Assembly (NCBI GenBank): GCA_000002445.1
Contig: CM000207.1
Coordinates: 2,368,001 to 2,432,000 of the forward strand
Reading direction: 5' to 3'
DNA length: 64,000 nt
Source of the DNA: Trypanosoma brucei
Lineage: Eukaryota
Part shown: positions 1 to 37,439 of the stretch, piece after piece
How positions within the stretch are numbered: position 1 is the stretch's first letter
How the letters are laid out: the number at the start of each line of letters is the position of its first letter
Program-made: the position numbers and the translations under genes
Notes under the pieces: generated by a model
The model's input: the letters and a program-made list of their open reading frames with translations, nothing else
Databases searched by the model: none
What the model was told of the DNA's origin: nothing

Positions 1-579
1 CACGCTGCTGAAGCTGCGGCTTTGGCTGCAAGTAACTTGGCTTTTGCCGCTGCAAATATTGCTGCGGTGCCGTGGTCACAACCAATCAGTGATTCCATGT
101 TGCATAAACTCGCACTATGCGACCACGTCGACGAGTATGTGCGAGAGGCAGCAAAAAAGTGCACAAAGAAAGCGAAGAACGTGACGGCACAATCTCTCAA
201 TGAGGTCCTCAAAGCGTTTGAGAAGCTGTTCAGTGAAGTAAATGCCTTGCAATCCTTACGGCATAATATTGCTGAGTTCCACAAAGACCTGAAATCGTTA
301 GAGGATCACGTTGAAGACATTGTCCGTGCACAAAAAAATGCGGAAGATGCAGCTGCAGAGACAAATAAAATAGCAGCGCCTGATCATGAGGTAGGAGGTA
401 ACAAAGAAGAAACACCAAGTCAACAGCCAGACACAAATCAAGATCAACAGGCAAATGAGAAACCTGAGGCAAATCAGACAGCCGGCACAAATACGGGACC
501 ACTTGGAAATTCCGTTGCTTCACCTGAAGGGTCAGTGCTGCTACTGATGGCTGGATTGTTTCTCGGTTCTGTACTGTAA
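1..579 (+). CDS. BARP: BARP-family alanine-rich GPI-anchored surface protein, 5'-truncated by the window edge. Has a long Q/N/E-rich C-terminal linker.
   Basis: Frame open from nt 1; 'AAEAAALAASNLAFAAANIAAVPW' matches the core of the other copies. Ends with the GPI signal 'SPEGSVLLLMAGLFLGSVL'. Confidence 0.7.
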   Translation, partial: HAAEAAALAASNLAFAAANIAAVPWSQPISDSMLHKLALCDHVDEYVREAAKKCTKKAKNVTAQSLNEVLKAFEKLFSEVNALQSLRHNIAEFHKDLKSLEDHVEDIVRAQKNAEDAAAETNKIAAPDHEVGGNKEETPSQQPDTNQDQQANEKPEANQTAGTNTGPLGNSVASPEGSVLLLMAGLFLGSVL

Positions 580-900: not shown

Positions 901-1589
901 TTTATTCATGTAAAGCACTGAGGTGATTGCGTGTGAGCATGGCCACCTATGCGTTACCATTGTAAAACCGTTTTGCTAAAATCTATCATTCCTACGCATC
1001 CATAATGTCCTATTGTATGCGTAAAGCTAACTGATTCTGAGGGTTTTTATTTTATCATGAAGCAAAACTGTTACACTGTGGGTTTACCTTCACATATCTC
1101 TCTCCCATTACTCATTACACTTATTTTATGTTGTATTCTCTCCCTTTTTATTTCATATCTCTATATTTTATGTTACTGTCAGTATGTTGTATCGTAATAG
1201 TGTAGGATACCCTAAATGCTCAATACATGTGCTCTTACTGATTCGATCAGATATTGATATTATCATGTCTAATGAAATGACTATTGGAAGTTTGGGTGTG
1301 TGCTATTGCATTGCCTCTCTGCTTTGTAATTATGATATTTGATTTCCACTGTCACTTAGAATTGTATTTAGTAGGGAGTGGGGACAGTTCCATGCTGTGA
1401 TGTGTGCAGTGTGCTTAAATGATGAGCTGATTGACTGTAATGGTGTCACTACTCATATTGATACTATTGTTGTTGCTATTCTTTGCATTTCCCACTGTTG
1501 ATTCCATTAATCTCTCCTAATTCTCATGACAAGAATCCACTACAAGACAGCAGACACAAGTTTCGATACCATCCGAATAAATAACAATT

Positions 1590-2372
1590 ATGAGCATCAC
1601 TTTTCATAACTTATGGCTACTTTTAACAGTGTTATGCACCGCAGGTATTCGTGCTGACGCAAGTAAGGAGGAGTGTCCGGATAAGGGATCTTATCCGGCA
1701 GCCGAGGACGTACTTGTATTGTGTCGTGTGGCGGAACAACTTCGAGGGTTACCGGATACAGTGAGTTCTGCTCTTGTTAATGCCGCTACTGCTTCGAGTA
1801 AAGCATTTGAAGCAAAGGTACAAGCAGAGGAAGCTGTGGAACTTGCCGAGTCGAAAGGCCTAAACGTTACGAAAGCGAAGGAAGCTGCTGTGAGAGCAAC
1901 ACTCGCTGCTGAAGCTGCGGCTACGGCTGCAAGTAATGTGGAAATTAACGCTGCAAATATTGCTGCGGTGCCGTGGCTTGAACGAAGACAAAATGTGGGT
2001 TGGCAGAAGCTTGCGAAGTGTATAGACTTAGATATGGACATGCGGGAAGCAGCAAGGGTGTGTAGAAGGGCAGCAGACAACGTGACAGCCCAATCCCTCA
2101 CTGCGGCGCTGAAGGATTTGGAGAAGGTTTATACTGATGTGAGTACTAGAGAAGCCTTACGGAAGGAAACCGTTGAGTTCCATAAAGAGCTCGCGTCTTT
2201 AGAGGAGCATGTCGAAGAGGCTGTCCGTGCACAAAAACGGGCTGAGGATGCAGCTGCATATGCGAATCAAACAGTCGGTACAAATACGGGACCAGTTGTG
2301 AATTCCGTTGCATCACCTGAAGGGTCAGTGCTGCTACTGATAGCTGGACTGTTTCTCGGTTCTGTACTGTAA
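1590..2372 (+). CDS. BARP: BARP-family alanine-rich GPI-anchored surface protein (260 aa)
   Basis: Signal peptide MSITFHNLWLLLTVLCTAGIRA, Ala-rich invariant core 'SSKAFEAKVQAEEAVELAESKGLNVTKAKEAAVRATLAAEAAATAASNVEINAANIAAVPW', and a C-terminal hydrophobic GPI signal. Family assignment is from memory of BARP (~14-gene cluster, GPI-anchored, Ala-rich). Confidence 0.75.
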   Translation: MSITFHNLWLLLTVLCTAGIRADASKEECPDKGSYPAAEDVLVLCRVAEQLRGLPDTVSSALVNAATASSKAFEAKVQAEEAVELAESKGLNVTKAKEAAVRATLAAEAAATAASNVEINAANIAAVPWLERRQNVGWQKLAKCIDLDMDMREAARVCRRAADNVTAQSLTAALKDLEKVYTDVSTREALRKETVEFHKELASLEEHVEEAVRAQKRAEDAAAYANQTVGTNTGPVVNSVASPEGSVLLLIAGLFLGSVL

Positions 2373-3384
2373 GAGGTTGCAACTCTATAAATTGTGATGC
2401 CAACCATTCCTCTTGTCTCCACACAGTTATGTGCACATACAAGTGAGGCAGCAAACATTCTTTGATATTAACCTTATTTTCTATCAGTGGCTATTAATAT
2501 TGTTATTTTATTTTGTTTCATTTATACTTTCACTTTTATTCTTTTTACTTTACTTTACTTTTCCTTTTATTATTTTATCTTTCGAACAGTTGTTGTAACT
2601 TTTATCCTTCATTTTTATAACTGATTTTCTAGTGTGTTTATTGCCCTACTTTTTAGCTATATTTTTTTCCTTTATTACCTTTGTTTTTTCATTATTTTAT
2701 TCATGTAATGCACTGAGGTGATTGCGTGTAAGCATGGCCACCTATGTGTTACCATCGTAAGAGCGTGTTACTAAAATCTATCATTCCTACGCATCCATAA
2801 TGTCCTATTGTATGCGTAAAGCTAACTGATTCTGAGGGTTTTTATTTTATCATGAAGCAAAACTGTTACACTGTGAGTTTACCTTCACATATCTCTCTCC
2901 CATTACTCATTACACTTATTTTATGTTGTATTCTCTCCCTTTTTATTTCATATCTCTATATTTTATGTTACTGTCAGTATGTTGTATCGTAATAGTGTAG
3001 GATACCCTAAATGCTCAATACATGTGCTCTTACTGATTCCATCAGATATTGATATTATCGTGTCTAATGAAATGACTATTGGAAGTTTGGGTGTGTGCTA
3101 TTGCATTCCCTCTCTGCTTTGTAATTATGTTATTTGATTTCCACTGTCACTTAGAATTGTATTTAGTAGGGAGTGGGGACAGTTCCATGCTGTGATGTGT
3201 GCAGTGTGCTTAAATGATGAGCTGATTGACTGTAATGGTGTCACTACTCATATTGATACTATTGTTATTGCTATTCTTTGTATTTCCCACTGTTGATTCC
3301 AATAATCTCTCCTAATTCTCATGACAAGAATCCACTACAAGACAGCAGACACAAGTTTCGATACCATCCAAATAAATAACAATT

Positions 3385-4167
3385 ATGAGCATCACTTTTC
3401 ATAATTTATGGCTACTTTTGACAGTGTTATGCACCGCAGGTGTTCGTGCTCATCATGGCTGGACCAATTGCTACCCTGCGGGAAACAGTCCACCAGTAGA
3501 AGAGATTCGTGCGTCATGCGAAGTGGCTCACCAACTTCGAGGCCTATCACAAACAGTAACATCTGCTGTGGAAACTTCCGCTGCTGCTTCGAGTAAAGCA
3601 TTTGAAGCAAAGGTACAAGCAGAGGAAGCTGTGGAACTTGCCGAGTCAAAAGGCCTAAACGTTACGAAAGCGAAGGAAGCTGCTGTGAGAGCAACACTCG
3701 CTGCTGAAGCTGCGGCTACGGCTGCAAGTAATGTGGAAATTAACGCTGCAAATATTGCTGCGGTGCCGTGGCTTGAACGAAGACAAAATACAGGTTGGGA
3801 GGTGCTTACGAAATGCATTAACTTAGACGATGATATAAAAAAAATGGCATCAAAGTGTAAAAGTGCAGCAGAAGTTGTAACAGCCGAATCGATCAGTGCG
3901 GCGTTAAACGATTTGGGGAAGACATTTATAAATGAGAAGACTCGAGAAGCCTTACGGAAGGAAAGCGTTGAGTTCCATAAAGAGCTCGCGTCTTTAGAGG
4001 AACATGTCGAAGAGGCTGTCCGTGCACAAAAACGGGCTGAGGATGCAGCTGCAGATGCGAATCAAACAGCCGGTACAAATACGGGACCAGTTGTGAATTC
4101 CGTTGCATCACCTGAAGGGTCAGTGCTGCTACTGATGGCTGGACTGTTTCTCGGTTCTGTACTGTAA
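3385..4167 (+). CDS. BARP: BARP-family paralogue (260 aa)
   Basis: Same signal peptide, core and GPI tail. Divergent Cys-bracketed N-terminal patch 'HHGWTNCYPAGNSPPVEEIRASCEVAHQ'. Confidence 0.75.
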   Translation: MSITFHNLWLLLTVLCTAGVRAHHGWTNCYPAGNSPPVEEIRASCEVAHQLRGLSQTVTSAVETSAAASSKAFEAKVQAEEAVELAESKGLNVTKAKEAAVRATLAAEAAATAASNVEINAANIAAVPWLERRQNTGWEVLTKCINLDDDIKKMASKCKSAAEVVTAESISAALNDLGKTFINEKTREALRKESVEFHKELASLEEHVEEAVRAQKRAEDAAADANQTAGTNTGPVVNSVASPEGSVLLLMAGLFLGSVL

Positions 4168-5183
4168 GAGGTTGCAACTCTATAAATTGTGATGCCAACC
4201 ATTCCACTTGTCTCCACACAGTTATATGCACATACAAGTGAGGCAGCAAACATCCTTTCCTATTAACCTTATTTTCTATCAGTGGCTATTAATATTGTTA
4301 TTTTATTTTGTTTCATTTATACTTTCATTTTTATTATTCTTTTTACTTTACTTTACTTTTCCTTTTATTATTTTATCTTTCGAACAGTTGTTGTAACTTT
4401 TATCCTTCATTTTTATAGCTGTGCTACTAAAGTGTGTTTATAGTCCTTCTTTTTAGTTGTATTTTTTCCTTTATTACCTTTGTTTTTTCATTATTTTATT
4501 CATGTAATGCACTGAGGTGATTGCGTGTGAGCATGACCACCTATGCGTTACCATTGTAAAACCGTGTTACTAAAACGTATCATTTCTACGCATCCATAAT
4601 GTCCTATTGTATGCGTAAAGCTAACTGATTCTGAGGGTTTTTATTTTATCATGAAGCAAAACTGTTACACTGTGAGTTTACCTTCACATATCTCTCTCCC
4701 ATTACTCATTACACTTATTTTATGTTGTATTCTCTCCCTTTTTATTTCATATCTCTATATTTTATGTTACTGTCAGTATGTTGTGTCGTAATAGTGTAGA
4801 ATACTCTAAACGCTCAATACATGTGCTCTTACTGATTCCATCAGATATTGATATTATCGTGTCTAATGAAATGACTATTGGAAGTTTGGGTGTGTGCTAT
4901 TGCATTGCCTCTCTGCTTTGTAATTATGATATTTGATTTCCACTGTCACTTAGAATTGTATTTAGTAGGGAGTGGGGACAGTTCCATGCTGTGATGTGTG
5001 CAGTGTGCTTAAATGATGAGCTGATTGACTGTAATGGTGTCACTACTCATATTGATACTATTAATGTTGCTATTCCCTGTATTTCCTACTGTTGATTCCA
5101 TTAATCTCTCCTAATTCTCATGACAAGAATCCACTACAAGACAGCAGACACAAGTTTCGATACCATCCGAATAAATAACAATT

Positions 5184-6056
5184 ATGAGCATCACTTTTCA
5201 TAACTTATGGCTACTTTTGACAGTGTTATGCACTGCAGGTATTCGTGCGCACGGTGACTGGAGAGATTGCTATGCTGGTAGGAAACCCCCACCGGCAGGA
5301 CACGTACGTGTGGTGTGCAGTTTGGCGGAACAACTTCGAGGTTTACCGGATACAATAAGTTCTGCTCTTGTTACTGCCGCTGCTGCTTCGAGTAAGGCAT
5401 TTGAAGCAAAGGTACAAGCAGAGGAAGCTGTGGAACTTGCCGAGTCGAGAGGCCTAAACGTTACGAAAGCGAAGGAAGCTGCTGTGAGAGCAACACTTGC
5501 TGCTGAAGCTGCGGCTACAGCTGCAAGTAATGTGGAAATTGACGCTGCAAATGTCACTTCCTCCCGTCTGGCTCGTCGCAATCCTAACACAGGCTTTGAG
5601 AAAGTTGCTATGTGCGAAAACTTGGACAAGGATTTGCGGGAGGCGGCAGCAAAGTGCACAAAGAAAGCGGAGAACGTGACAACCCAATCACTCAGTGAGA
5701 CACTTCATAGGTTGGAGAATCTGTACACTAATATGAGTGCTCTTGAATCCTTACGGGTCGAACATGTTGAAATTGAACGCTTTTTTGAGATGCTCGAAGA
5801 ACACGTGGAGGAGGCTGTCCGTGCACAAAGACAAGCTGAGGAAGCAGCTGCCGAGGCAATTAAAATAGTAGCTGCTGATGAGGAGGTGAGAGGATACAAA
5901 AAGGAAGAAATTAATCAAGTAGCAGGGACAAAAAAAGGTCATGAGGCAAATCAAACAACCGGCACAAATACGGGACCAGTTGTGAATTCCGTTGCATCAC
6001 CTGAAGGGTCAGTGCTGCTACTGATGGCTGGACTGTTTCTCGGTTCTGTACTGTAA
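5184..6056 (+). CDS. BARP: BARP-family paralogue (290 aa) with C-terminal linker insertion
   Basis: Conserved signal, core and GPI tail. Extra block 'EAIKIVAADEEVRGYKKEEINQVAGTKKGHEANQTTGTNTGP' before the GPI signal. Confidence 0.75.
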   Translation: MSITFHNLWLLLTVLCTAGIRAHGDWRDCYAGRKPPPAGHVRVVCSLAEQLRGLPDTISSALVTAAAASSKAFEAKVQAEEAVELAESRGLNVTKAKEAAVRATLAAEAAATAASNVEIDAANVTSSRLARRNPNTGFEKVAMCENLDKDLREAAAKCTKKAENVTTQSLSETLHRLENLYTNMSALESLRVEHVEIERFFEMLEEHVEEAVRAQRQAEEAAAEAIKIVAADEEVRGYKKEEINQVAGTKKGHEANQTTGTNTGPVVNSVASPEGSVLLLMAGLFLGSVL

Positions 6057-7074: not shown

Positions 7075-7947
7075 ATGAGCATCACTTTTAATAATTTATG
7101 GCTACTTTTGACAGTGTTATGCACCGCAGGTATTCGTGCTCATCATGTCTGGAATGATTGCTTTGCCGATGGAAGCTATCCACCACTAGAAGGTATACCC
7201 GCATTGTGTGGTGTGGCGGAACAACTTCGAGGTTTACCGGATACAATAAGTTCTGCTCTTGTTAATGTCGCTACTGCTTCGAGTAAAGCATTTGAAGCAA
7301 AGGTACAAGCAGAGGAAGCTGTGGAACTTGCCGAGTCGAAAGGCCTAAACGTTACGAAAGCGAAGGAAGCTGCTGTGAGAGCAACACTCGCTGCTGAAGC
7401 TGCGGCTACGGCTGCAAGTAATGTGGAAATTAACGCTGCAAATATTGCTGCGGTGCCGTGGTCACAAAGGAGACAGGATGCGGGGTTGCAAAAAGTTGCA
7501 CTATGCGACAATGTGGACAAGGATGTACGAGAGGCGGCAGCAAAGTGCACAAAGAAAGCGGAGAACGTGACAGCTGAATCTCTCCGTGCGGCACTAGAAG
7601 CGTTGGAGAATCTTGTTACTGATGTTAAATTCCAAGAAAATTTACGGAAGGAAGATGTCGAATTTCACACGGAGCTGAAATCATTAGAGGATCACGTGGA
7701 GGAGGCTGTCCGTGCACAAAGACAAGCTGAGGAAGCAGCTGCCGAGGCAATTAAAATAGTAGCTGCTGATGAGGAGGTGAGAGGATACAAAAAGGAAGAA
7801 ATTAATCAAGTAGCAGGGACAAAAAAAGGTCATGAGGCAAATCAAACAACCGGCACAAATACGGGACCAGTTGTGAATTCCGTTGCATCACCTGAAGGGT
7901 CAGTGCTGCTACTGATGGCTGGACTGTTTCTCGGTTCTGTACTGTAA
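7075..7947 (+). CDS. BARP: BARP-family paralogue (290 aa) with the same C-terminal linker insertion
   Basis: Same architecture. Linker identical to the gene at 5184. Confidence 0.75.
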   Translation: MSITFNNLWLLLTVLCTAGIRAHHVWNDCFADGSYPPLEGIPALCGVAEQLRGLPDTISSALVNVATASSKAFEAKVQAEEAVELAESKGLNVTKAKEAAVRATLAAEAAATAASNVEINAANIAAVPWSQRRQDAGLQKVALCDNVDKDVREAAAKCTKKAENVTAESLRAALEALENLVTDVKFQENLRKEDVEFHTELKSLEDHVEEAVRAQRQAEEAAAEAIKIVAADEEVRGYKKEEINQVAGTKKGHEANQTTGTNTGPVVNSVASPEGSVLLLMAGLFLGSVL

Positions 7948-10742: not shown

Positions 10743-11579
10743 ATGAGCATCACTTTTAATAATTTATGGCTACTTTTGACAGTGTTATGCACTGCAGGTA
10801 TTCGTGCGCACGGTGACTGGAGAGATTGCTATGCTGCTAGGAAACCCCCACCGGCAGGACACGTACGTGTGGTGTGCAATTTGGCGGAACAACTTCGAGG
10901 GTTACCGGATACAGTAAGTTCTGCTCTTGTTAATGCCGCTGCTGCTTCGAGTAAAGCATTTGAAGCAAAGGTACAAGCAGAGGAAGCTGTGGAACTTGCC
11001 GAGTCGAGAGGCCTAAACGTTACGAAAGCGAAGGAAGCTGCTGTGAGAGCAACACTCGCTGCTGAAGCTGCGGCTACGGCTGCAAGTAATGTGGAAATTA
11101 ACGCTGCAAATGTCACTTCCTCGCGTTTGGCTCGTCGCAACCCTAACACAGGCTTTGAGAAAATTGCTATGTGCGAAAACTTGGACGAGGATGTACGAGA
11201 GGCAGCAGTAAAGTGTACAAAGAAAGCGGAGAACGTGACAACCCAATCTCTCAATGAAGCACTTCATAGGTTGGAGAATCTGTACACTAATATGAGTGCT
11301 CTTGAATCCTTACGGGTTGAACATGTTGAAATTGAACGCTTTTTTGAGATGCTCGAAGAACACGTAGAGGAGGCTGTGAGTGCACAAAGACAAGCTGAGG
11401 ATGCAGCTGCCGAGGCAATTAAAATAGCAGCTGCTGATGAGAAGGTGAGAGGATACAAAAAGGAAGAAATAAATCAAACAGCCGGCCCAAATACGGGACC
11501 AGTTGTGAATTCCGTTGCATCACCTGAAGGGTCGGTGCTGCTACTGATGGCTGGACTGTTTCTCGGTTCTGTACTGTAA
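10743..11579 (+). CDS. BARP: BARP-family paralogue (278 aa), shorter linker variant
   Basis: N-terminal patch almost identical to the gene at 5184 ('HGDWRDCYA.RKPPPAGHVRVVC'). Linker 'EAIKIAAADEKVRGYKKEEINQTAGPNTGP'. Confidence 0.75.
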   Translation: MSITFNNLWLLLTVLCTAGIRAHGDWRDCYAARKPPPAGHVRVVCNLAEQLRGLPDTVSSALVNAAAASSKAFEAKVQAEEAVELAESRGLNVTKAKEAAVRATLAAEAAATAASNVEINAANVTSSRLARRNPNTGFEKIAMCENLDEDVREAAVKCTKKAENVTTQSLNEALHRLENLYTNMSALESLRVEHVEIERFFEMLEEHVEEAVSAQRQAEDAAAEAIKIAAADEKVRGYKKEEINQTAGPNTGPVVNSVASPEGSVLLLMAGLFLGSVL

Positions 11580-13362: not shown

Positions 13363-14381
13363 GAGGTTGCAACTCCATGAATTGTGATCCCAACCATTCC
13401 ACTTGTCTCCACACAGTTATGTGCACATACAAGTGAGGCAGCAAACATCCTTTCACATTAGTATTATTTTCTATCAGTGGCTATTAATATTGTTATTTTA
13501 TTTTGTTTCATTTATACTTTCACTTTTATTATTCTTTTTACTTTACTTTACTTTTCCTTTACTGTGTTATCTTTCGAATATCTGTTCCAACTTTTATCCT
13601 TCATTTTTATAACTGTGCAGCTGAGGTGTGTCTATTTTCCTATTTTCATTTTTATTTTTTTCCTTTACCACCTTTGTTTTTTCATTATTTTATTCATGTA
13701 ATGCACTGAGGTGATTGCGTGTAAGCATGGCCACCTATGCGTTACAATAGTGACACTTTTTTTTTAATCAAAATCTATCATTCCTACGCATCCATAATGT
13801 CCTATTGTATGCGTAAAGCTAACTGATTCTGAGGGGTTTTATTTTATCATGAAGCAAAACTGTTACACTGTGGGTTTACCTTCACATATCTCTCTCCCAT
13901 TACTCATTACACTTATTTTATGTTGTATTCTCTCCCTTTTTATTTCATATCTCTATATTTTATGTTACTGTCAGTAGGTTGTATCGTAATAGTGTAGGAT
14001 ACCCTAAATGCTCAATACATGTGCTCTTACTGGTTCCATCAGATATTGATATTATCGTGTCTAATGAAATGACTATTGGAAGTTTGGATGTGTGCTATTG
14101 CATTGCCTCTCTGCTTTGTAATTATGATATTTGATTTCCACTGTCACTTAGAATTGTATTTAGTAGGGAGTGGGGACAGTTCCATGCTGTGATGTGTGCA
14201 GTGTGCTTAAATGATGAGCTGATTGACTGTAATGGTGTCACTACTCATATTGATACTATTAATGTTGCTATTCTTTGTATTTCCCACTGTTGATTCCAAT
14301 AATCTCTCCTAATTCTCATGACAAGAATCCACTACAAGACAGCAGACACAAGTTTCGATACCATCCAAATTAATAACAATT

Positions 14382-15362
14382 ATGAGCATCACTTTTCATA
14401 ATTTATGGCTACTTTTGACAGTGTTATGCACTGCAGGTATTCGTGCTGACCCAAGTAAGGAGGAGTGTCCGGATTTGGGAGGTTATCCATCAGCTGACGA
14501 CGTACTTGTATTGTGTTATTTGGCGGAACAACTTCGAGGGTTACCGGATACAATAAGTTCTGCTCTTGTTAATGCCGCTGCTGCTTCGAGTAAAGCATTT
14601 GAAGCAAAGGTACAAGCAGAGGAAGCTGTGGAACTTGCCGAGTCGAAAGGCCTAAACGTTACGAAAGCGAAGGAAGCTGCTGTGAGAGCAACACTCGCTG
14701 CTGAAGCTGCGGCCACGGCTGCAAGTAATGTGGAAATTAACGCTGCAAATATTTCTGCTTTCTCTATTGATTTTTTGGAGAGTGCGAACTTGTTGCTGTT
14801 TGAAGTTAGGGACGCAAAAGATGTTGGTGAAGACGTGAGAATCGTGGCGCAAAGGTGCACGGGTGAAGCGAACTTTGTTACGGTTGCTTCTCTAACCAAT
14901 GCACTGGATAATGTTACTTCTCTGTACTCCGTGTATGGTAAAGGCACGGCTTCTTTGAGTATGGAAAGTGTTGCCCTTTTGGAGGAGCTGAAGATGTTGG
15001 AAGATGGCTTGAAGAAGTCACAGGTTGCTGTTTCGGTGGCGGCTGACGCAGCAGACCAGTCGAAACTATTGGTAGATGCAGTTGAAGTATCGGGCAATAC
15101 TGCCAAAGGGGCTGTCAATAACCATAATACCGCAAATAATGAAAGCAACAAAGCAACAAGAAATAAAGATCAAGATGAAGGTAGAACAGTCGGAAACAAC
15201 GACAAGGAATTTACTATAACTTCTGAGGATTATACGAAGAAAAACCAAGGAGAAAACGGGGACCTGAGCTCGATTACCCTTACAGAAGATAGCGGAAGTT
15301 CTTTTATCGCTAAATATCCCTTTCACCTGTGTACCATATTCACTTTCTATACACTTCTATGA
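14382..15362 (+). CDS. Aberrant BARP-family member (326 aa): conserved N-half, divergent C-half, canonical GPI signal lost
   Basis: Identical signal peptide and core up to 'NVEINAANI'. After that the sequence is unique, with an N/K/D/T-rich tail ending 'SSFIAKYPFHLCTIFTFYTLL'. The canonical post-stop element is missing and ~180 nt of unique 3' flank follows (15363-15545). Confidence 0.6.
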   Translation: MSITFHNLWLLLTVLCTAGIRADPSKEECPDLGGYPSADDVLVLCYLAEQLRGLPDTISSALVNAAAASSKAFEAKVQAEEAVELAESKGLNVTKAKEAAVRATLAAEAAATAASNVEINAANISAFSIDFLESANLLLFEVRDAKDVGEDVRIVAQRCTGEANFVTVASLTNALDNVTSLYSVYGKGTASLSMESVALLEELKMLEDGLKKSQVAVSVAADAADQSKLLVDAVEVSGNTAKGAVNNHNTANNESNKATRNKDQDEGRTVGNNDKEFTITSEDYTKKNQGENGDLSSITLTEDSGSSFIAKYPFHLCTIFTFYTLL

Positions 15363-16321
15363 TAAGCGACGGCGTAACAATTTTTGTCACAAACACATTC
15401 CGAGACGTCATTTAATTAATACAATCATGAATTAAACTTATCCACGGTATATACAAAAGTGCGACTTTCCACGAAAAGGTCGTCATCTTTTCCCTAAAAC
15501 ACCTTCTCTTGTATTTTATAAAAAGTTGTTGTTGCTTTTATCTTTCTTTTTTATAACTGTGCAGCTGAGGTGCGTCTATTTTCCTATTTTCATTTTTATT
15601 TTTTTCCTTTACTAACTTTGTTTTTTCATTATTTTATTCATGTAATGCACTGAGGTGATTGCGTGTAAGCATGGCCACCTATGCGTTACCATTGTAAAAC
15701 CGTGTTACTAAAACGTATCATTCCTACGCATCCATAATGTCCTATTGTATGCGTAAAGCTAACTGATTCTGAGGGTTTTTATTTTATCATGAAGCAAAAA
15801 TGTTACACTGTGGGTTTACCTTCACATATCTCTCTCCCATTACTCATTACACTTATTTTATGTTGTATTCTCTCCCTTTTTATTTCATATCTCTATATTT
15901 TATGTTACTGTCAGTAGGTTGTATCGTAATAGTGTAGGATACCCTAAATACTCAATACATGTGCTCTTGTTGATTCGATCAGATATTGATATTATCGTGT
16001 CTAATGAAATGACTATTGGAAGTTTGGGTGTGTGCTATTGCATTGCCTCTCTGCTTTGTAATTATGATATTTGATTTCCACTGTCACTTAGAATTGTATT
16101 TAGTAGGGAGCGGGGACAGTTCCATGCTGTGATGTGTGCAGTGTGCTTAAATGATGAGCTGATTGACTGTAATGGTGTCACTACTCATATTGATACTATT
16201 AATGTTGCTATTCCCTGTATTTCCTACTGTTGATTCCATTAATCTCTCCTAATTCTCATGACAAGAATCCACTACAAGACAGCACACACAAGTTTCGATA
16301 CCATCCAAATTAATAACAATT

Positions 16322-25446: not shown

Positions 25447-26487
25447 ATGCACTCATGTTGGATTGGTTCGCTGTTACTACTAGTGGGACTTATGTTTTTT
25501 AGTATTGTTTGCCGAGCAAATGGAACGGAAGTGAAGCCGCTGGAAGAAAGTGCAGAGGATATTTGTGCGGCCATGAAGTCCCTTAATACCGTAAATAACA
25601 CTGTACAAAATATTATTACCACCATACGCAATCACAAGGCGAAATTGATACGCTATCTCCAGGATGTAGAGACGGCATTTGAAAGGACGAGTAGCGCAGC
25701 CGCTGCAGCGAAACAATACGGGGGAACCTTCCGAACTGCGTCGGTGGCATCAAAAATTGCGAATGACGCAATGTCCAACTCCACGCGGGCCATGTTGGAT
25801 GCTGAAACGAGTCACAACACGACTCTTATTATTGAGGCGGCGGCGAATATTGAAGCACAGAGCGCGAGAGACAACGCAACTGCCGCCGCTGTGGCACTTC
25901 AGGCGATATGGAAAACGACAGTTGGCACTGCCAGACTTCAAGCGAACCATACGGATTGTGTGTATACACCAGCTGATCAGATGTTGACGTCCCAGAAGCT
26001 GAATGAGCACAAAGAGAAGCTGGTGGTAACAGATAGCAAATATAATGATGAACACAAGGAGTTGAAGGAGCTTTGGGCGCGGAGTTATCTGAAGCTCTTC
26101 CTCCCGCTCGACCAGCTCCATATGTTATTGCAAAAGTTGGAATGGGATGTTGCCACAACGTCAGAGATGGAAACCACTGCAGAAAAGGCAGCTGATGCAG
26201 CAGTAGCGGCGCAAGAGGATGTTGAGAAGGCGGCAGAGTTGGCGGCGGAGAGTGCGACAGAATCTGTACGGGCAAAACGATACTCTGATCGTGTCGCAAG
26301 AGGGAATATGAAATTTAAAACCATCGCAGGATTTCATGAGGAACCTCTACCCGAGGTCGTCCCTCGTCCCGGGGCAAAGGCATCTGCCGCGTCCGATCCA
26401 TTGGAAAATGAAGACGGCGCTTTTTATGTGTCCAGGGGAATAATGCCGCTCAGTCAAGCTTTTTTCGTAATTGCGTTTACCATATAA
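25447..26487 (+). CDS. Alanine-rich secreted/GPI-type protein (346 aa), possible distant BARP/GARP-like (Fam50-like) relative
   Basis: N-terminal signal peptide 'MHSCWIGSLLLLVGLMFFSIVCRANG'. Ala/Glu-rich helical-looking stretches ('AEKAADAAVAAQEDVEKAAELAAESATESV' cf. BARP 'VEEAVRAQKQAEDAAADA'). Several NxT/S sites. C-terminal hydrophobic tail 'GIMPLSQAFFVIAFTI'. Preceded by a T-rich tract at 25150-25400. Confidence 0.6.
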   Translation: MHSCWIGSLLLLVGLMFFSIVCRANGTEVKPLEESAEDICAAMKSLNTVNNTVQNIITTIRNHKAKLIRYLQDVETAFERTSSAAAAAKQYGGTFRTASVASKIANDAMSNSTRAMLDAETSHNTTLIIEAAANIEAQSARDNATAAAVALQAIWKTTVGTARLQANHTDCVYTPADQMLTSQKLNEHKEKLVVTDSKYNDEHKELKELWARSYLKLFLPLDQLHMLLQKLEWDVATTSEMETTAEKAADAAVAAQEDVEKAAELAAESATESVRAKRYSDRVARGNMKFKTIAGFHEEPLPEVVPRPGAKASAASDPLENEDGAFYVSRGIMPLSQAFFVIAFTI

Positions 26488-33269: not shown

Positions 33270-36203
33270 AACTGAAATATATATATGGAGGGTTGTGGCA
33301 TTATTATTATTATTACTGTTTACTATTGTTAATGCTATTGTTAACATCTCAATTATTTATTTCTGTTACTGTTTTTTTTTACTTTTCATTTTTTAGTTAG
33401 TAATGCAAAAAGATGGATTTCATAAAATGCTTTCACCTGCGGCAGCTATCGTTATTATCACAATGAATCGGATGCGTGCACACAGGCCTTCACGCTTATT
33501 ATTTTATTTTATTTTTTAGCGATTGATAACAACAAGTAAAAACACAGATGAAAGCTTCGTTTTGGCAATGGAGAAATTATCATATGTCATTCAATACAAA
33601 ATTATAATAACTATAATATAATATAAATGGTGCTTACGAATCAATCGGATTGTGTTGGGGACGTGCCGGAAGGCACGTCAACGGGTTTCCAACACACGAA
33701 CGATCAGGGAAGTGAACGGCAATTGCAACTTGTTTTTTATTTGTATTTTTATTTTTGCTCTTGAGTCTAATGGTGGTGATGAGCATATTTGTACAGAGTA
33801 ATTGGGGATGTTTTCATGCCGGATGTTATGGTTTATTACATGAAATGCCCTTTTGGTAAATGCGTTCCATCAATTTTCGTCAAACTGACCGCTGTTATTG
33901 TTGTTATTGTTGTTTTTATTCATACACGCGCTAAATGATTGTGGGATCAGTTTATGGTACCGTTCAAAAATGTATATAACACGGCGTTGCATTTATGCAT
34001 GAAGTTAAGTTAAATTAAGTTAGGTTAAGTGAATTGTTCATTCAGTTGTCAAATATGCGAGTTTGAAACAGTGATTAAAGGATGGAACGGTGTGAAGTGC
34101 TCGATATCTCTTCTTTTTTTTAAAAAAAAAGTATATAAAATAAAGCAAGAAAGGATTTGAACGGGGTTTCGGAGGAATTCCTTCGTTAGTAAATTCTTTT
34201 TTTGATGCCTCCAGTGGTTTCAGGAACCGAACATAGATTATAACATCTCAAGTGGAAACTTAAATTTCACACGAAAATATGCCTTTTGAAAGTCGTTTAC
34301 AGCAAATGGCCATTAGCAATGATGTGCGTTGATCCTCCCGCCTAAGAGGTGATAACTTAAACCTTTAAAATGCTGGAAAGAATCTTTGAATAAGTTGAGT
34401 GTATGACATTATGGTTCCTTAACTCTAAATAAAACGCCACATATTGTAATGTTGAGGTACGGGGACTTGTGTGTCCCTCTACGCCCATTGGGGAGGGGAG
34501 AGCCGCGTATTTTAACTGCATTTGCAGCGTTTTATCCCTCAGTGTGTGGGTGTGGCCCATTTAAGGAATGCACAGCTGAAAGATGCTCCTTGAAACTGCT
34601 TTTGCTTTCACCCGTTAAATCCATGAAGCGATGACTTGCAACAAAAACAGCGTTTGTACGTGTATATTAATATGTTTATGTACGTGTGTGAATATGGATA
34701 TAAATATTGATATTGATATTTCCTCCTTGAGGATAATAGTAATTTCTTTCTTCAAGCGTTTGTCCTGCCCCAGTTACAACAAAGTAACATCCACATGTGT
34801 CTTCCTCTGCTGTTGATTTTGACGTGACTGCGAGACGTCCACTCGACAATGCGAAGATGTGGGAGAGCATGGCTGCGTTATACAGGTGTTTGCACTATCA
34901 ATTTGCTCGGCCCCTTATCAAGGGCTTTCGTTTTTACGTGTTAATGAAACCACGAATTAATTCATCAGTACCGTTGACTGCTCTTTCCGCTATGGGCGGC
35001 ATCAGAGATGTAACCGCACCATAATAGTGATGCGCCGACGCTCATAAGGAATGTGGTTTTCCACCTAAGTAGACTGTGAGGTGATGCTCCATTTGTATAT
35101 GCGCCGGTAGGGGCCATTTAGAGGCAAATGATATTCGTGTGTGTACACGTTCGCGTGTGTGCATGAGGGCTCTGGAACTTAAACTGGAGGTGTAAAGCAT
35201 ATACACGCCGACACTTCTATTTTTTTGGGGGGGGGAAGTACCAAATCTGACGGAGGGTTTGTCGTTTTCGCCCGGAGGATGTACCATTTTAAAAACTTAG
35301 GTTAATCAAATCGAAGAACATGTCGGCCGTGTTGATTTCAAGTGGGGTGTTTGTTGTGGGGAACAGCACACAAGTTAAAAGGAGTGCACAGTGCATGAGT
35401 TGCCTTGTGGGGTGGACCGGTGCATACATACGAATATTCAGAGACTCTTTTGGGTCTTTTTTTATTTTTTTAAAAAAAAACTTTGAAGATGCCCCTGCTG
35501 ATTTATAGTTACTCCACATCCGAGCGATGATTGAGTGGGAATGATCGCAGAGAGTCATACGCGTGTCGGCACTCCTGGCTTTTTTTCTTTTTATCAGGTG
35601 AGGTTGGTGCGTGTGTAACGGAAGCAGAAGAAGGTAAAGCGGGACGAATAGGAGAGTCTCAGTGGCAAAAGGATTCGTTACTGGCATGAAACTAATTGCC
35701 AATTCAAAGAGCTTTTCCGCATCTTTCCCAACAAGACGGGAGACGATAAAAGAAACAGGGCTGTGTAAGGGGGGAGGAAAATGGGCGAGCAATAGCCGCT
35801 GCAGTTAAAGAGTATGTGCTGCCTTGTGGGAAAGTTTAATGATTTGCATTCCTCAGCGGTGAGGTTAGGAATGAAAAAAAAAAATTTCCTATGGAAGAAA
35901 TCTCGCGGTTGGGTGCTGGGGAAGCCGAAGCGGCAGTTTGGGTCGCGATCATGCAATCCGCATCACTCGTGAAAAAATGTCTGGTTGACCACGCGTTTTT
36001 GTCGGTAATTGTGGGTCAGTGGCGCGCTATGACCTCTTCTAAAACCAATAAACAAATTGTCAACGAGGCTAGAACTTAACACATGTGGGTAAAGTCCGTT
36101 GTGGTGTAGCCGCTGGTTCGAACAATCCTAAATGCTTTTTTTTTGCAATTTTTTAAGACACTCAACGTTGCTCCTCCCTTTCCCTCACCTTACCTCAGGG
36201 AGT

Positions 36204-37439
36204 ATGAGAACGATCCTCACCACATTAGGGTTATTGTTAGGCGTCACGCAGTACTCTGTGGGTGTCCCTGGAGCTGCCCTCAGCGTTGCAGCCGCTAGAA
36301 TAGTGTGCGAAGCGGCTATGGAACTTGGGAGAGCCGAATCTTATATCTCGATGAAACTGCGCGAAACGCGCGACTTGATCGAGTCCTTGAAAGTTGCTCG
36401 CAGACTCCTTGATGGCAAACTGCAGCGGGACAGACCCATCGGGGAGGAGTGCCTGAACGCAGTTAAGCTTATCGCTCACGCAGATGGTCTGGGTCGCAAA
36501 CTAGAGTCGCAATATTATGAGTTGGAGAGGATAGGGTTCAAAACCGCCTCCAAGTCCCGGCTGGCCTCCGGGAGACTCCACGAATTTATTTTAGTGTTTT
36601 CCCAGTGGCACGACGGCGAGGGCAGATGCATTGCCAACGGGGACGAGGAGGGCGACACACAGGGTGAAGTCACGCTGCGCCGTTGTATGAGCAGTTTGGT
36701 TAACGGAAGCTACGAAGACGGTGGCGGTGGCGTCCATCACAACTTCCCGCGTTATCTGAGGGAATCATTTCAGAATCTTTTTACGCTAGATGAGGATGTA
36801 TCGCTGAACAAGGATAATGGATGTCCTCTGACAAGGTGGAAAGTCATCCACAACGCAACGGCAAATGCCACGGGACGGAGTGGGGCCGCGGAAGATGTTA
36901 GGTGGGCAGGTGGGCTCCTTATTGTCACAGGTAACGGCCCCAGATGGATTTCAGACATTGAAGGGGTCCCGATGCTATCCAAAACGAAAACTAGCCTTGG
37001 AAAATTTGTGTCGATGTCCAGTAAAATTACCAGTGCCTTCAGTAATTTTATGGGAATAGTTTGGGCAGACAACCCGTGGTTGGTGAACAGCAGTGAAGTG
37101 GACAGTCTGATCGTGGGTGTTGACCTCTACATCTTTATGCACCCTTCCAGGGACTTCCAGATCAATGAAAGGGACCTAGACCGCCTGACAAAAACTTATT
37201 GTGGCGAACCCCTCCCCGCTCACGTGCGGCTCAGCGACAAAGTTGCTGACGGAAGGGACGGAAATAGTGACGTCTCGCCTCGCGGCCCTGTAGTCCCCGC
37301 AAACATATCTGAAACCAATACGATTTTCGGTAGCGATGATGACGATGAAGATTACAATGGTTTAACGGAGGTTAAGGCTGGGACCGAGCTTCTGTCGTTG
37401 TTGTTTCCCCTCGTGGCAATAAACCTTTTTCTTGTCTGA
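36204..37439 (+). CDS. GPI-anchored surface protein of the ESAG6/7-PAG (transferrin-receptor-like) lineage, 412 aa from the second Met
   Basis: Signal peptide 'MRTILTTLGLLLGVTQYSVG'. Motif 'ASGRLHEFILVFSQWHDGEGRCI' closely resembles ESAG6 'AAGRLEEWIFVFAQAAGRSSQFCI' (from memory). C-terminal GPI-type tail 'GTELLSLLFPLVAINLFLV'. The ORF-track start at 36132 lies inside the upstream polypyrimidine tract (36135-36198), so 36204 is the more likely start. Confidence 0.7.
   Translation: MRTILTTLGLLLGVTQYSVGVPGAALSVAAARIVCEAAMELGRAESYISMKLRETRDLIESLKVARRLLDGKLQRDRPIGEECLNAVKLIAHADGLGRKLESQYYELERIGFKTASKSRLASGRLHEFILVFSQWHDGEGRCIANGDEEGDTQGEVTLRRCMSSLVNGSYEDGGGGVHHNFPRYLRESFQNLFTLDEDVSLNKDNGCPLTRWKVIHNATANATGRSGAAEDVRWAGGLLIVTGNGPRWISDIEGVPMLSKTKTSLGKFVSMSSKITSAFSNFMGIVWADNPWLVNSSEVDSLIVGVDLYIFMHPSRDFQINERDLDRLTKTYCGEPLPAHVRLSDKVADGRDGNSDVSPRGPVVPANISETNTIFGSDDDDEDYNGLTEVKAGTELLSLLFPLVAINLFLV

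What the first reader, a model, noticed from the sequence alone, without database searches (positions are those of the whole stretch)
14382..15545. One BARP-array member has had its 3' half and 3'UTR replaced
The ninth gene keeps the family signal peptide and Ala-rich core exactly, then switches to unique sequence. The Cys context is retained ('AQRCTGEANFVT'). It gains a long Asn/Lys/Asp/Thr-rich low-complexity tail ('NHNTANNESNKATRNKDQDEGRTVGNNDKE...'). It ends in 'YPFHLCTIFTFYTLL' instead of the invariant 'SPEGSVLLLMAGLFLGSVL'. The conserved post-stop element is deleted and replaced by ~180 nt of unique sequence before the spacer consensus resumes at ~15545. This suggests a chimeric paralogue with different anchoring or secretion and different post-transcriptional control. 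It could be a neofunctionalised member or a pseudogene in the making.
Basis: seen in the sequence. Interest (0 to 1): 0.6.

Follow-up and report, generated by a model that had tools for sequence, protein, structure and literature searches.

The report
Divergent, probably decaying BARP coat-gene copy
One copy in the Trypanosoma brucei BARP surface-coat gene array (Tb927.9.15590) has a family-type front half joined to a very diverged back half, a long floppy tail and its own start of the 3'UTR; it is real and already annotated, and it looks weakly constrained rather than clearly re-purposed.

Summary
The gene at 14382-15362 (326 aa) is T. b. brucei TREU927 BARP Tb927.9.15590 (XP_827696.1). It is family-identical up to 14753 and again from about 15520. 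Between those points lies a roughly 765-nt block with no nucleotide match elsewhere in the window.

The block is not foreign. Its first 100 codons still score as the second half of the Pfam GARP domain (E 4e-21). They keep the Fam50 Cys+VTxxSL motif and model as a GARP-type helical bundle. The last ~100 codons (disordered tail plus a GPI-like signal) and about 158 nt of 3'UTR are orphan sequence.

The same mosaic sits at the same array position in T. b. gambiense. So it is neither an assembly artefact nor a recent event.

The flanks are more similar to copies in the same genome than to the ortholog, which indicates concerted evolution. The block evolves as a single-copy island.

Several results point to relaxed constraint:
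- dN/dS is 0.88, against 0.19-0.33 for canonical copies.
- A family-invariant Cys is lost.
- The gambiense copy has a frameshift that uncouples the signal peptide.
- The part of a T. equiperdum array I examined lacks the block.
- Published RNA-seq shows normal salivary-gland induction at 4-20 times lower abundance.

The unusual C-terminal domain has been noted in print. Interest is low to moderate.

The parts
13363..14381 (+). Family-type upstream intergenic region, presumably containing the polypyrimidine tract, splice acceptor and 5'UTR
   Evidence: Aligns with the other units. The last 600 nt are 98.8% identical to a T. b. brucei (Tbb) paralogue but 96.8% to the T. b. gambiense (Tbg) ortholog, which indicates concerted evolution. 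The RNA-processing sites are inferred, not mapped.
14382..14753 (+). Family-type N-terminal half, aa 1-124: signal peptide (about aa 1-22), N-variable stretch (type shared with copies 1590, 8962 and 12595), and invariant Ala-rich core
   Evidence: The core is 98-100% identical to 10 of the 12 other copies (91-93% to copies 19914 and 23487). SP plus N-variable region is 87% identical to three copies. The nucleotide breakpoint is after 14753. The cleavage site is inferred.
14754..15053 (+). Highly diverged second half of the GARP/BARP helical domain, aa 125-224, with the Fam50 Cys159 + VTVASL motif; family Cys145 is lost
   Evidence: Pfam PF16731 positions 90-192: 75.7 bits, E 4.4e-21. Identity is 22-38% to other BARP C-halves and 28-29% to GARP. 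AF2 pLDDT is 76-88 and the model matches 2Y44 with TM 0.95. dN/dS vs Tbg is 1.62, from 15 changes.
15054..15290 (+). Orphan Asn/Thr/Asp/Lys/Glu-rich tail, aa 225-303; helix 3 is modelled to about aa 243 and the rest is predicted disordered; one extra N-glycosylation sequon (NES at 253)
   Evidence: pLDDT is below 40 from aa 241. Composition and absence of repeats. No significant match to any BARP in the window with composition-corrected BLASTP. The only database match is the Tbg ortholog.
15291..15362 (+). C-terminal GPI-signal-like sequence (SGSSFIAKYPFHLCTIFTFYTLL, aa 304-326) plus the stop codon
   Evidence: Layout: small residues S304/G305/S306, spacer FIAKYP(FH), and a hydrophobic end with mean Kyte-Doolittle 1.87 over the last 11 residues, against 2.21 in canonical BARP. 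Conserved in Tbg with two conservative changes. No GPI predictor was available.
15363..15520 (+). Unique proximal 3'UTR that replaces the ~215-nt post-stop element conserved in the other 13 copies
   Evidence: Alignment of post-stop regions. No local similarity to the family C-terminus/3'UTR beyond shuffled controls. 93.8% identical to the Tbg ortholog with no indels.
15521..16321 (+). Family-type remainder of the intergenic region, including the single UA(U)6 motif at about 15597 that every BARP spacer has
   Evidence: Match to the other units is 0.7-1.0. Motif positions. The last 800 nt are closer to within-genome paralogues (97.0% in Tbb, 98.4% in Tbg) than to the ortholog (95.0%).

Best explanation
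The gene is Tb927.9.15590. It is a genuine BARP paralogue held at a fixed position in the chromosome-9 tandem array, and it is a mosaic.

How the mosaic is maintained. The upstream spacer, the signal peptide, the N-terminal half up to the end of the invariant Ala-rich core, and most of the downstream spacer are kept family-like by ongoing gene conversion with neighbouring copies. An internal ~765-nt island (14754 to about 15520) has no homologous partner in the array, so it escapes homogenisation and evolves as single-copy DNA.

What the island encodes:
- an old, very diverged version of the second half of the GARP/BARP helical bundle;
- an orphan, disordered polar tail of roughly 60-80 aa;
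- a different but still GPI-signal-like C-terminus;
- about 158 nt of orphan proximal 3'UTR.

Predicted product in strain TREU927: a secreted, probably GPI-anchored BARP on a long flexible stalk. It is made from an mRNA that is induced in salivary-gland stages like other BARPs but is much less abundant.

Evolutionary status. On the T. b. brucei / T. b. gambiense time scale the island evolves at the neutral rate, has lost a conserved cysteine, and is disabled by a frameshift in T. b. gambiense. The copy is therefore most likely dispensable and decaying, not a newly specialised gene.

Shown: the mosaic anatomy, its conservation in a second subspecies, homology of aa 125-224 to the family, the neutral-like substitution pattern, and the frameshift as assembled.

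Inferred: gene conversion as the mechanism, the direction of the event (flanks overwritten rather than block imported), GPI anchoring, and loss of function.
For: Identity. The protein is an exact match to XP_827696.1 / Q38CV4, 'BARP protein', T. b. brucei TREU927. It is the only BARP with a C-terminal domain, as PMC10089363 says of Tb927.9.15590.

Anatomy and homology.
- Breakpoints are at 14753/14754 and about 15520.
- The C-half alone hits Pfam GARP positions 90-192 at E 4.4e-21.
- BLASTP to the other copies gives 28-37% identity, best E 2e-10.
- The Fam50 Cys+VTxxSL motif described in PMC3605285 is retained.
- In the AF2 model residues 38-243 are helical with pLDDT 76-89, and the best PDB match is GARP 2Y44 (TM 0.95, rmsd 1.4 A).

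Age and reality. The T. b. gambiense DAL972 unit is colinear at 94% identity with the same breakpoints and the same array position.

Concerted evolution of the flanks only. Upstream 600 nt: 98.8% and 99.5% to within-genome paralogues against 96.8% to the ortholog. Downstream 800 nt: 97.0% and 98.4% against 95.0%.

Mosaicism is a family habit. N-variable types and C-half types assort independently.

No donor. None was found in the window, in 5.8 billion clustered proteins, or in 1.84 billion representatives.

Relaxed constraint.
- Island dN/dS is 0.88 (19.5 non-synonymous: 6.5 synonymous changes), which fits neutrality.
- Canonical C-halves give 0.19-0.33. Fisher p is 0.004-0.016.
- Cys145 is lost in both subspecies.
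- In T. b. gambiense the signal peptide reading frame stops after 34 codons and the rest of the protein is in the +1 frame.
- The examined 22.6 kb of a T. equiperdum BARP array lacks the island.

Expression (PMC8483307). log2FC salivary gland vs proventriculus is 2.9 (p 1.7e-8). Normalised counts go from 30 to 255, against 987-5353 in salivary glands for the other BARPs I read.
Against: - The TREU927 ORF is fully intact, and the gambiense ORF has no stop or indel in the 295 codons after the frameshift.
- The island has reached about 70% amino-acid divergence from its relatives yet keeps a foldable GARP half-domain, the family motif and a plausible GPI signal. It must have been under purifying selection for most of its history.
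- The tail and GPI-signal codons give dN/dS 0.41-0.58, but from only 11 changes.
- dN/dS near or above 1 in the helical part could reflect diversifying selection on a surface protein.
- The gambiense frameshift could be a sequencing or assembly error in a repetitive array. I could not check reads.
- The lower read counts could partly reflect mapping EATRO1125 reads to a TREU927 reference at a locus with about 5% divergence.
- Only part of the T. equiperdum contig was examined, and that lineage is not tsetse-transmitted.
Confidence: 0.55

Rival explanations
1. Functional, neofunctionalised 'stalked BARP'. The diverged head half and the disordered stalk of roughly 60-80 aa raise an altered helical bundle above the canonical BARP coat of salivary-gland epimastigotes. 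The near-neutral or elevated dN/dS would then reflect diversifying selection. The changed proximal 3'UTR would set a deliberately low expression level.
For: - The ORF is intact in TREU927.
- The helical bundle is predicted to fold, and the Fam50 motif and Pfam domain are retained.
- The GPI-like signal is conserved between subspecies.
- The transcript is induced 8-fold in salivary glands.
- dN/dS is 1.62 in the helical part against 0.41 in the tail.
- In the related MISP family, long disordered C-terminal tethers are proposed to elevate the head group (PMC10089363).
- Linker length also varies among other BARP copies.
Against: - The frameshift in T. b. gambiense uncouples the signal peptide.
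- A cysteine conserved in all other BARPs and in GARP is lost.
- The island as a whole fits neutrality.
- The block is absent from the examined T. equiperdum array.
- The mRNA is 4-20 times lower than other copies.
- No isoform-specific peptide appears in the held proteomics supplements.
- The counts are too small to show dN/dS significantly above 1.
Confidence: 0.27
2. Recent import. The block (or at least its tail, GPI signal and 3'UTR part, about 15054-15520) was pasted in by ectopic recombination from a different gene elsewhere in the genome. That donor could be a diverged Fam50 member or another GPI-protein gene, either no longer present or unannotated.
For: - The breakpoints are sharp.
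- aa 205-326 and the unique UTR have no detectable similarity to any BARP.
- The C-half is about as far from BARP neighbours (22-38%) as from T. congolense GARP (28-29%).
Against: - No donor was found among annotated proteins of TREU927, DAL972 or any other proteome in the databases, nor in the 64-kb window.
- The event predates the brucei/gambiense split, so it is not recent.
- aa 125-224 are colinear and in register with the family domain across the junction. Helix 2 runs straight through the junction. That is what is expected if only the flanks were homogenised.
Confidence: 0.15
3. Assembly or annotation artefact: a chimeric join within a repetitive array.
For: Tandem arrays of 1.8-kb units are prone to mis-assembly.
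Against: - The independent DAL972 assembly has the same unit. It is colinear over 2,959 nt with the same breakpoints and about 5% substitutions spread along it.
- RNA-seq reads are assigned to the gene.
Confidence: 0.02

Closest known systems
Canonical BARP isoforms of the same array (Tb927.9.15510-15640; Urwyler et al. 2007, as cited in PMC10089363 and PMC8483307)
   Same: - Same array and same flanking spacers.
- Identical signal peptide and Ala-rich core.
- Pfam GARP domain and the Fam50 Cys+VTxxSL motif.
- mRNA induced in salivary glands.
   Different: - The C-half is only 22-38% identical.
- One of the four conserved Cys is missing.
- There is an orphan C-terminal extension: about 79 aa between the Pfam domain and the GPI signal, some 60 of them predicted disordered.
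- The C-terminal hydrophobic signal is different.
- The first ~215 nt of the family 3'UTR are replaced by ~158 nt of orphan sequence.
- dN/dS is 0.88 against 0.19-0.33.
- The mRNA is 4-20 times less abundant.
T. congolense GARP (PDB 2Y44; Pfam PF16731)
   Same: Predicted fold: TM 0.95, rmsd 1.4 A over 187 columns, 34% identity. Sequence match E 2.4e-16 for the whole protein.
   Different: - The C-half alone matches GARP at only 19.3 bits, against 34.3 bits for a canonical BARP C-half.
- GARP has both C-half cysteines.
- Different species and a different expression pattern.
MISP360/MISP380 (Fam50 relatives on chromosome 7; PDB 5VTL)
   Same: A triple-helical bundle head (TM 0.84) carried on a long, disordered C-terminal tether ahead of a GPI signal. 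Salivary-gland stage expression (PMC10089363).
   Different: MISP tethers are built from 26-residue repeats, and copy number sets the tether length. The tail here has no repeats and no sequence similarity to anything but its own ortholog.
Concerted evolution with escaped islands in trypanosome tandem surface-gene arrays (the general process discussed for Fam50, Fam15 and ESAG6/7 in PMC3605285)
   Same: Flanks are closer to within-genome paralogues than to the ortholog. N-half and C-half types are shuffled among the copies.
   Different: Here one copy holds a block so diverged that it no longer has a conversion partner. The mechanism is inferred from identity patterns, not observed.

Membership tests
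BARP/GARP family (Pfam PF16731; Fam50 of the trypanosome cell-surface phylome) | GARP domain above Pfam's gathering score | tested here: met
   Whole protein: 207.8 bits against a cut-off of 27.4, aa 39-224. The divergent C-half alone: 75.7 bits, profile positions 90-192.
BARP/GARP family (Pfam PF16731; Fam50 of the trypanosome cell-surface phylome) | Ubiquitous Cys followed a few residues later by a VTxxSL motif (PMC3605285) | tested here: met
   C159-TGEANF-V166 T167 V A S170 L171, inside the divergent block. These columns are invariant across all 13 copies.
BARP/GARP family (Pfam PF16731; Fam50 of the trypanosome cell-surface phylome) | Extended triple-helical bundle fold | tested here: met
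   AF2 model: helices 38-88, 94-143 and 189-243 plus two short head helices, pLDDT 76-89. Foldseek vs PDB: 2Y44 TM 0.95, 5VTL TM 0.84, 6XZ6 TM 0.84. This is a prediction only, and the alignment was dominated by canonical BARPs.
BARP (T. brucei chromosome 9 array) | Member of the tandem array with the family signal peptide and invariant Ala-rich core | tested here: met
   Ninth of 14 units. The signal peptide matches the family sequence. The core is 98-100% identical to 10 of the 12 other copies (91-93% to copies 19914 and 23487).
BARP (T. brucei chromosome 9 array) | Four conserved ectodomain cysteines (29, 45, 145, 159) | tested here: not met
   Position 145 is Ala in TREU927 and in the T. 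b. gambiense ortholog. It is Cys in all 12 other copies and in GARP.
BARP (T. brucei chromosome 9 array) | Family C-terminal GPI signal (...SPEGSVLLLMAGLFLGSVL) and GPI anchoring | tested here: inconclusive
   The family signal is absent. The replacement has small residues (SGS), a spacer and an 11-13-residue hydrophobic end. It is less hydrophobic than the family signal (Kyte-Doolittle 1.87 vs 2.21 over the last 11 residues). No GPI predictor or experiment was available.
BARP (T. brucei chromosome 9 array) | Conserved ~215-nt post-stop 3'UTR element | tested here: not met
   Replaced by about 158 nt with no similarity beyond shuffled controls. The rest of the spacer and its UA(U)6 motif are retained.
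BARP (T. brucei chromosome 9 array) | Salivary-gland (epimastigote) specific expression | not testable with these tools
   From the literature only. PMC8483307 Table 1 and its supplement give log2FC 2.9 and counts rising from 30 to 255. There is no isoform-specific protein evidence.
Pseudogene | Disabling mutation in the reading frame | tested here: inconclusive
   TREU927 has none: the 326-codon ORF is intact. T. b. gambiense DAL972 has a +1 frameshift after about codon 31 and a stop at codon 35 of the signal-peptide frame. Reads could not be checked.
Pseudogene | Neutral substitution pattern (dN/dS about 1) | tested here: met
   Island dN/dS is 0.88 (19.5 non-synonymous, 6.5 synonymous). Canonical copies give 0.19-0.33. 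Fisher p is 0.004-0.016. The same pattern could also arise from diversifying selection.
MISP-type tethered isoform | C-terminal tether made of tandem 26-residue repeats | tested here: not met
   The only repeated 3-mer in aa 225-326 is NTA, twice. There is no database similarity.

The most novel reading that the evidence does not exclude
Tb927.9.15590 is a functional, specialised 'stalked' BARP. Its altered helical head is lifted above the canonical BARP coat on a flexible tether, under diversifying selection. It is kept at low dosage by its private proximal 3'UTR. That would make it a minor ligand-binding or adhesion isoform of salivary-gland epimastigotes that T. b. gambiense has lost.
Probability: 0.2. 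Interest if true: 0.5.

Novelty: already known. Interest (0 to 1): 0.3.

Why it matters
BARP is the coat protein of the T. brucei stage that colonises tsetse salivary glands, and its function is still unknown.

This copy is a natural experiment. It has the same promoter-less array context, 5' flank, signal peptide and N-half as its neighbours, but a different head half, stalk, anchor signal and proximal 3'UTR. It could therefore be used to test two things. One is which parts of BARP mRNA set its abundance. The other is whether stalk length matters for surface display, as proposed for the related MISP proteins.

It is also a clean example of how concerted evolution in a tandem array stops at the edge of a block that has drifted too far to pair.

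The gene is already annotated and its odd C-terminus has been mentioned in print. The evidence here leans towards a dispensable copy, so the pay-off is modest.

Tried and rejected
1. Donor inside the window. blastn (word size 7) of 14755-15510 against the rest of the window found nothing at E<1. tblastn of the tail found only chance 6-24-aa matches.

2. Donor or relatives in protein space. I ran a word-indexed search of 5.8 billion clusters and a full phmmer scan of 1.84 billion representatives with aa 116/120-326. Both returned only the T. b. gambiense ortholog.

3. Read-through origin. I tested whether the new C-terminus and UTR come from read-through into a diverged family 3'UTR. The best local alignment score was 18, below the shuffle mean of 19.6, so I rejected this.

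4. Tail as a diverged long linker. I tested whether the tail is a diverged version of the long linkers in the 278/290-aa BARP copies. An uncorrected BLASTP alignment ran into the tail. With composition correction, aa 205-326 match no other BARP, so I rejected this.

5. Ancient lineage versus acceleration. In Tajima relative-rate tests with GARP as outgroup, this copy has more unique changes in all 12 comparisons, but the difference is significant in only 4 (p 0.008-0.03). The test does not separate an old lineage from accelerated evolution.

6. Downstream gene. I checked whether the 346-aa gene after the array (25447-26487) is a remote BARP relative or donor. hhalign gave probability 1.4%, so no.

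7. Isoform-specific peptides in the held supplements of PMC10089363: none found.

8. Isoform-resolved single-cell data in PMC8939820 and PMC8509897: only generic BARP markers are reported.

9. BARP 3'UTR function in the literature: nothing specific was found.

10. A resemblance I recalled between the new C-terminus and VSG-type GPI signals was not tested and is not used.
Full report
**What the window is.** The first 25 kb hold a head-to-tail array of 1.8-kb units. Each unit encodes a ~255-290-aa protein that starts MSITFHNLWLLLTVLCTAG and ends ...SPEGSVLLLMAGLFLGSVL. The 326-aa product of 14382-15362 is an exact match to XP_827696.1 / Q38CV4, 'BARP protein' of Trypanosoma brucei brucei TREU927. 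It is the ninth unit, counting the partial first one. It is also the only copy with a long C-terminal extension, so it corresponds to Tb927.9.15590. [quoted passage not shown] Downstream lie an unclassified 346-aa gene, a receptor-type adenylate cyclase and VSG-related genes.

**Checking the observation.** I aligned all units. Unit 9 is family-like from its ATG to about 14741 and again from about 15509. In between, its match to the other copies drops to 0-0.5 per 40-nt block.
- The base-level 5' breakpoint is after 14753, at the end of the invariant Ala-rich core.
- The 3' rejoin is at about 15518-15525.
- The post-stop unique stretch is therefore about 158 nt rather than ~180 nt. It replaces a ~215-nt element that is almost invariant in the other 13 copies.
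- The quoted Cys context, the N/T/D/K/E-rich tail and the ...YPFHLCTIFTFYTLL end are all present.

**Is the block foreign?** No, at least not its first third.
- On its own, aa 120-326 hits Pfam GARP (PF16731) at profile positions 90-192 with 75.7 bits, E 4.4e-21.
- BLASTP to the other copies gives 28-37% identity, best E 2e-10.
- The retained 'C...VTVASL' is the Cys+VTxxSL hallmark that defines Fam50 (PMC3605285).
- An AlphaFold2 model built on 21 BARP sequences places aa 38-243 in long helices with pLDDT 76-89. Helix 2 (94-143) runs straight through the junction at residue 124.
- The model's best PDB match is T. congolense GARP 2Y44 (TM 0.95, rmsd 1.4 A), followed by MISP360 and the factor H receptor.

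From about aa 241 the model is disordered (pLDDT below 40), until a short hydrophobic C-terminal helix. With composition-corrected BLASTP, aa 205-326 match nothing else in the window. The tail-plus-UTR nucleotides show no similarity to the family C-terminus or 3'UTR beyond shuffled controls. A word-indexed search of 5.8 billion protein clusters and an exhaustive phmmer scan of 1.84 billion representatives found only one relative of the C-half, its own ortholog.

One departure from the family stands out. The Cys at alignment position 145 is present in all 12 other copies and in GARP. Here it is Ala, in both subspecies. In the related MISP360, two disulfides anchor the head of the bundle (PMC10089363). 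By inference, one such bond cannot form in this protein.

**Conservation elsewhere.** The T. b. gambiense DAL972 chromosome 9 (FN554972.1) has the same unit at the same relative position in its array. It is colinear over 2,959 nt at 94% identity, with no indels in the island. This excludes an assembly artefact and dates the mosaic to before the subspecies split.

The gambiense gene model is 295 aa and starts at an internal Met. The reason is a 1-nt insertion about 95 nt after the family ATG. The signal-peptide frame then stops after 34 codons, and the rest of the protein is in the +1 frame. As assembled, that copy cannot enter the secretory pathway. I could not check reads.

In a T. b. equiperdum assembly (QSBY01000017.1), the 22.6 kb I could fetch hold eight BARP units and no trace of the island. 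The rest of that contig was not examined.

**How it evolves.** The flanks behave like array DNA and the island does not.
- The upstream 600 nt are 98.8% (brucei) and 99.5% (gambiense) identical to a paralogue in the same genome, but only 96.8% identical between orthologs.
- The downstream 800 nt give 97.0% and 98.4% against 95.0%.

This is the signature of continuing gene conversion. The island has no partner and differs by 4-6% between subspecies.

Mosaicism is general in the array. For example, copies 1590 and 8962 are 100% identical in the N-variable part but only 41% identical in the C-half. So the end of the invariant core is a habitual recombination boundary.

Within the island, 19.5 non-synonymous and 6.5 synonymous differences give dN/dS 0.88. 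That is what neutrality predicts for 468 non-synonymous and 138 synonymous sites. The best brucei-gambiense pairs of canonical BARPs give 0.19-0.33 in the same region, and the difference is significant (Fisher p 0.004-0.016). The helical part gives 1.62 and the tail 0.41, but from 15 and 8 changes respectively.

The C-half is 28-29% identical to T. congolense GARP and 22-38% identical to its own neighbours. Relative-rate tests show only mild acceleration. The block is therefore either an old lineage or a long-diverging one. Because it still encodes a recognisable, foldable half-domain and an open frame, it must have been under constraint for most of that time.

**C-terminal signal.** The end of the protein reads ...TED-S304-G305-S306-S-FIAKYPFH-LCTIFTFYTLL. 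It has small residues at candidate attachment positions, a spacer of about 8 residues, and an 11-13-residue hydrophobic end. That end is less hydrophobic than the family signal (mean Kyte-Doolittle 1.87 vs 2.21 over the last 11 residues). The gambiense version differs by S to A and L to V only. This fits the general layout of a GPI signal (established knowledge). No predictor was available, so anchoring remains inferred. Nothing points to a switch to secretion or a transmembrane anchor.

**mRNA control.** Only the first ~158 nt after the stop are private. The remaining ~800 nt of spacer are family-like. They include the single UA(U)6 motif that every BARP spacer carries about 290 nt after its stop, here at about 15597.

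In a tsetse time-course (PMC8483307), Tb927.9.15590 is up 2.9 log2 units in salivary glands relative to the proventriculus (p 1.7e-8), within the BARP range of 2.6-5.3. Its normalised counts rise from 30 to 255, against 987-5353 in salivary glands for the other copies I could read. Stage specificity is therefore preserved and abundance is 4-20 times lower. Loss of the family post-stop element is a reasonable but untested cause. Cross-strain mapping is a caveat.

Shared N-terminal peptides in a saliva proteome cannot tell this isoform from the others. I found no isoform-specific peptides in the held supplements.

**Verdict.** The feature is real and is a known, annotated BARP copy. It is best described as a mosaic. 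The flanks are homogenised with the array. The internal island combines a deeply diverged half of the family domain with an orphan stalk, an alternative GPI-like signal and an orphan proximal 3'UTR.

'Replacement' is not demonstrated, and 'different anchoring or regulation' is mostly not supported. The question is easy to settle with population data and targeted proteomics.

Noticed in passing
window 1590-24269 (all BARP copies): The whole array is mosaic: N-variable types and C-half types assort independently. Copies 1590 and 8962 are 100% identical in aa 1-67 but only 41% in the C-half. Copies 8962 and 12595 have identical C-halves. The invariant Ala-rich core sits between the two variable parts, like a shared recombination tract.
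   Followed up: partly
window 22-579; 5184-6056; 7075-7947; 10743-11579: Stalk or linker length varies in other copies too. The partial first copy has a long Q/N/E/P-rich linker before the family GPI signal. The 278- and 290-aa copies carry 18-30-aa inserts. The published statement that only Tb927.9.15590 has a C-terminal domain is therefore an approximation.
   Followed up: partly
window about +285..293 nt after each BARP stop codon (e.g. 15597 for gene 9): In 13 of the 14 BARP intergenic spacers there is exactly one UA(U)6 motif at a conserved offset. This is the kind of motif bound by RBP10 according to PMC5568443. The last spacer has two, at other offsets. Its function here is untested.
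   Followed up: no
L001:2800-8100 (T. b. gambiense) and L002:2463-8210 (T. b. equiperdum): Both arrays are interrupted by the same ~5.3-kb retroelement-like insertion (ORFs with Exo_endo_phos_2 and zinc-finger hits; 96-97% identical between the two). The TREU927 array in the window has no such insertion.
   Followed up: partly
window 25447-26487 (+): A 346-aa ORF immediately after the array has a signal-peptide-like N-terminus and a hydrophobic C-terminus. It has no Pfam hit above threshold and no profile similarity to BARP (hhalign probability 1.4%). A 346-residue gene is called at the corresponding position after the array in T. b. gambiense, and a 245-residue gene after the T. b. equiperdum array; I did not compare their sequences.
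   Followed up: partly
window 36132-37439; 40372-41799; 48831-50255; 57284-58708: One gene has a VSG A-type domain. Three ~475-aa paralogues with a VSG B-type domain are spaced about 8.45 kb apart and share identical C-terminal ~100 aa. These are VSG-related genes at a chromosome-internal site.
   Followed up: no
window, minus strand over each Ala-rich core (e.g. 14516-15151): Long antisense ORFs (124-211 aa) overlap most BARP genes. They look like a by-product of the GCN-rich Ala codons rather than genes.
   Followed up: no
window 14440-14500 vs L001:9965-10030: The N-variable stretch of gene 9 differs sharply between T. b. brucei and T. b. gambiense, although the surrounding sequence is near-identical. 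This suggests that one lineage received a short conversion tract from a different paralogue, and the gambiense frameshift lies inside this patch.
   Followed up: no
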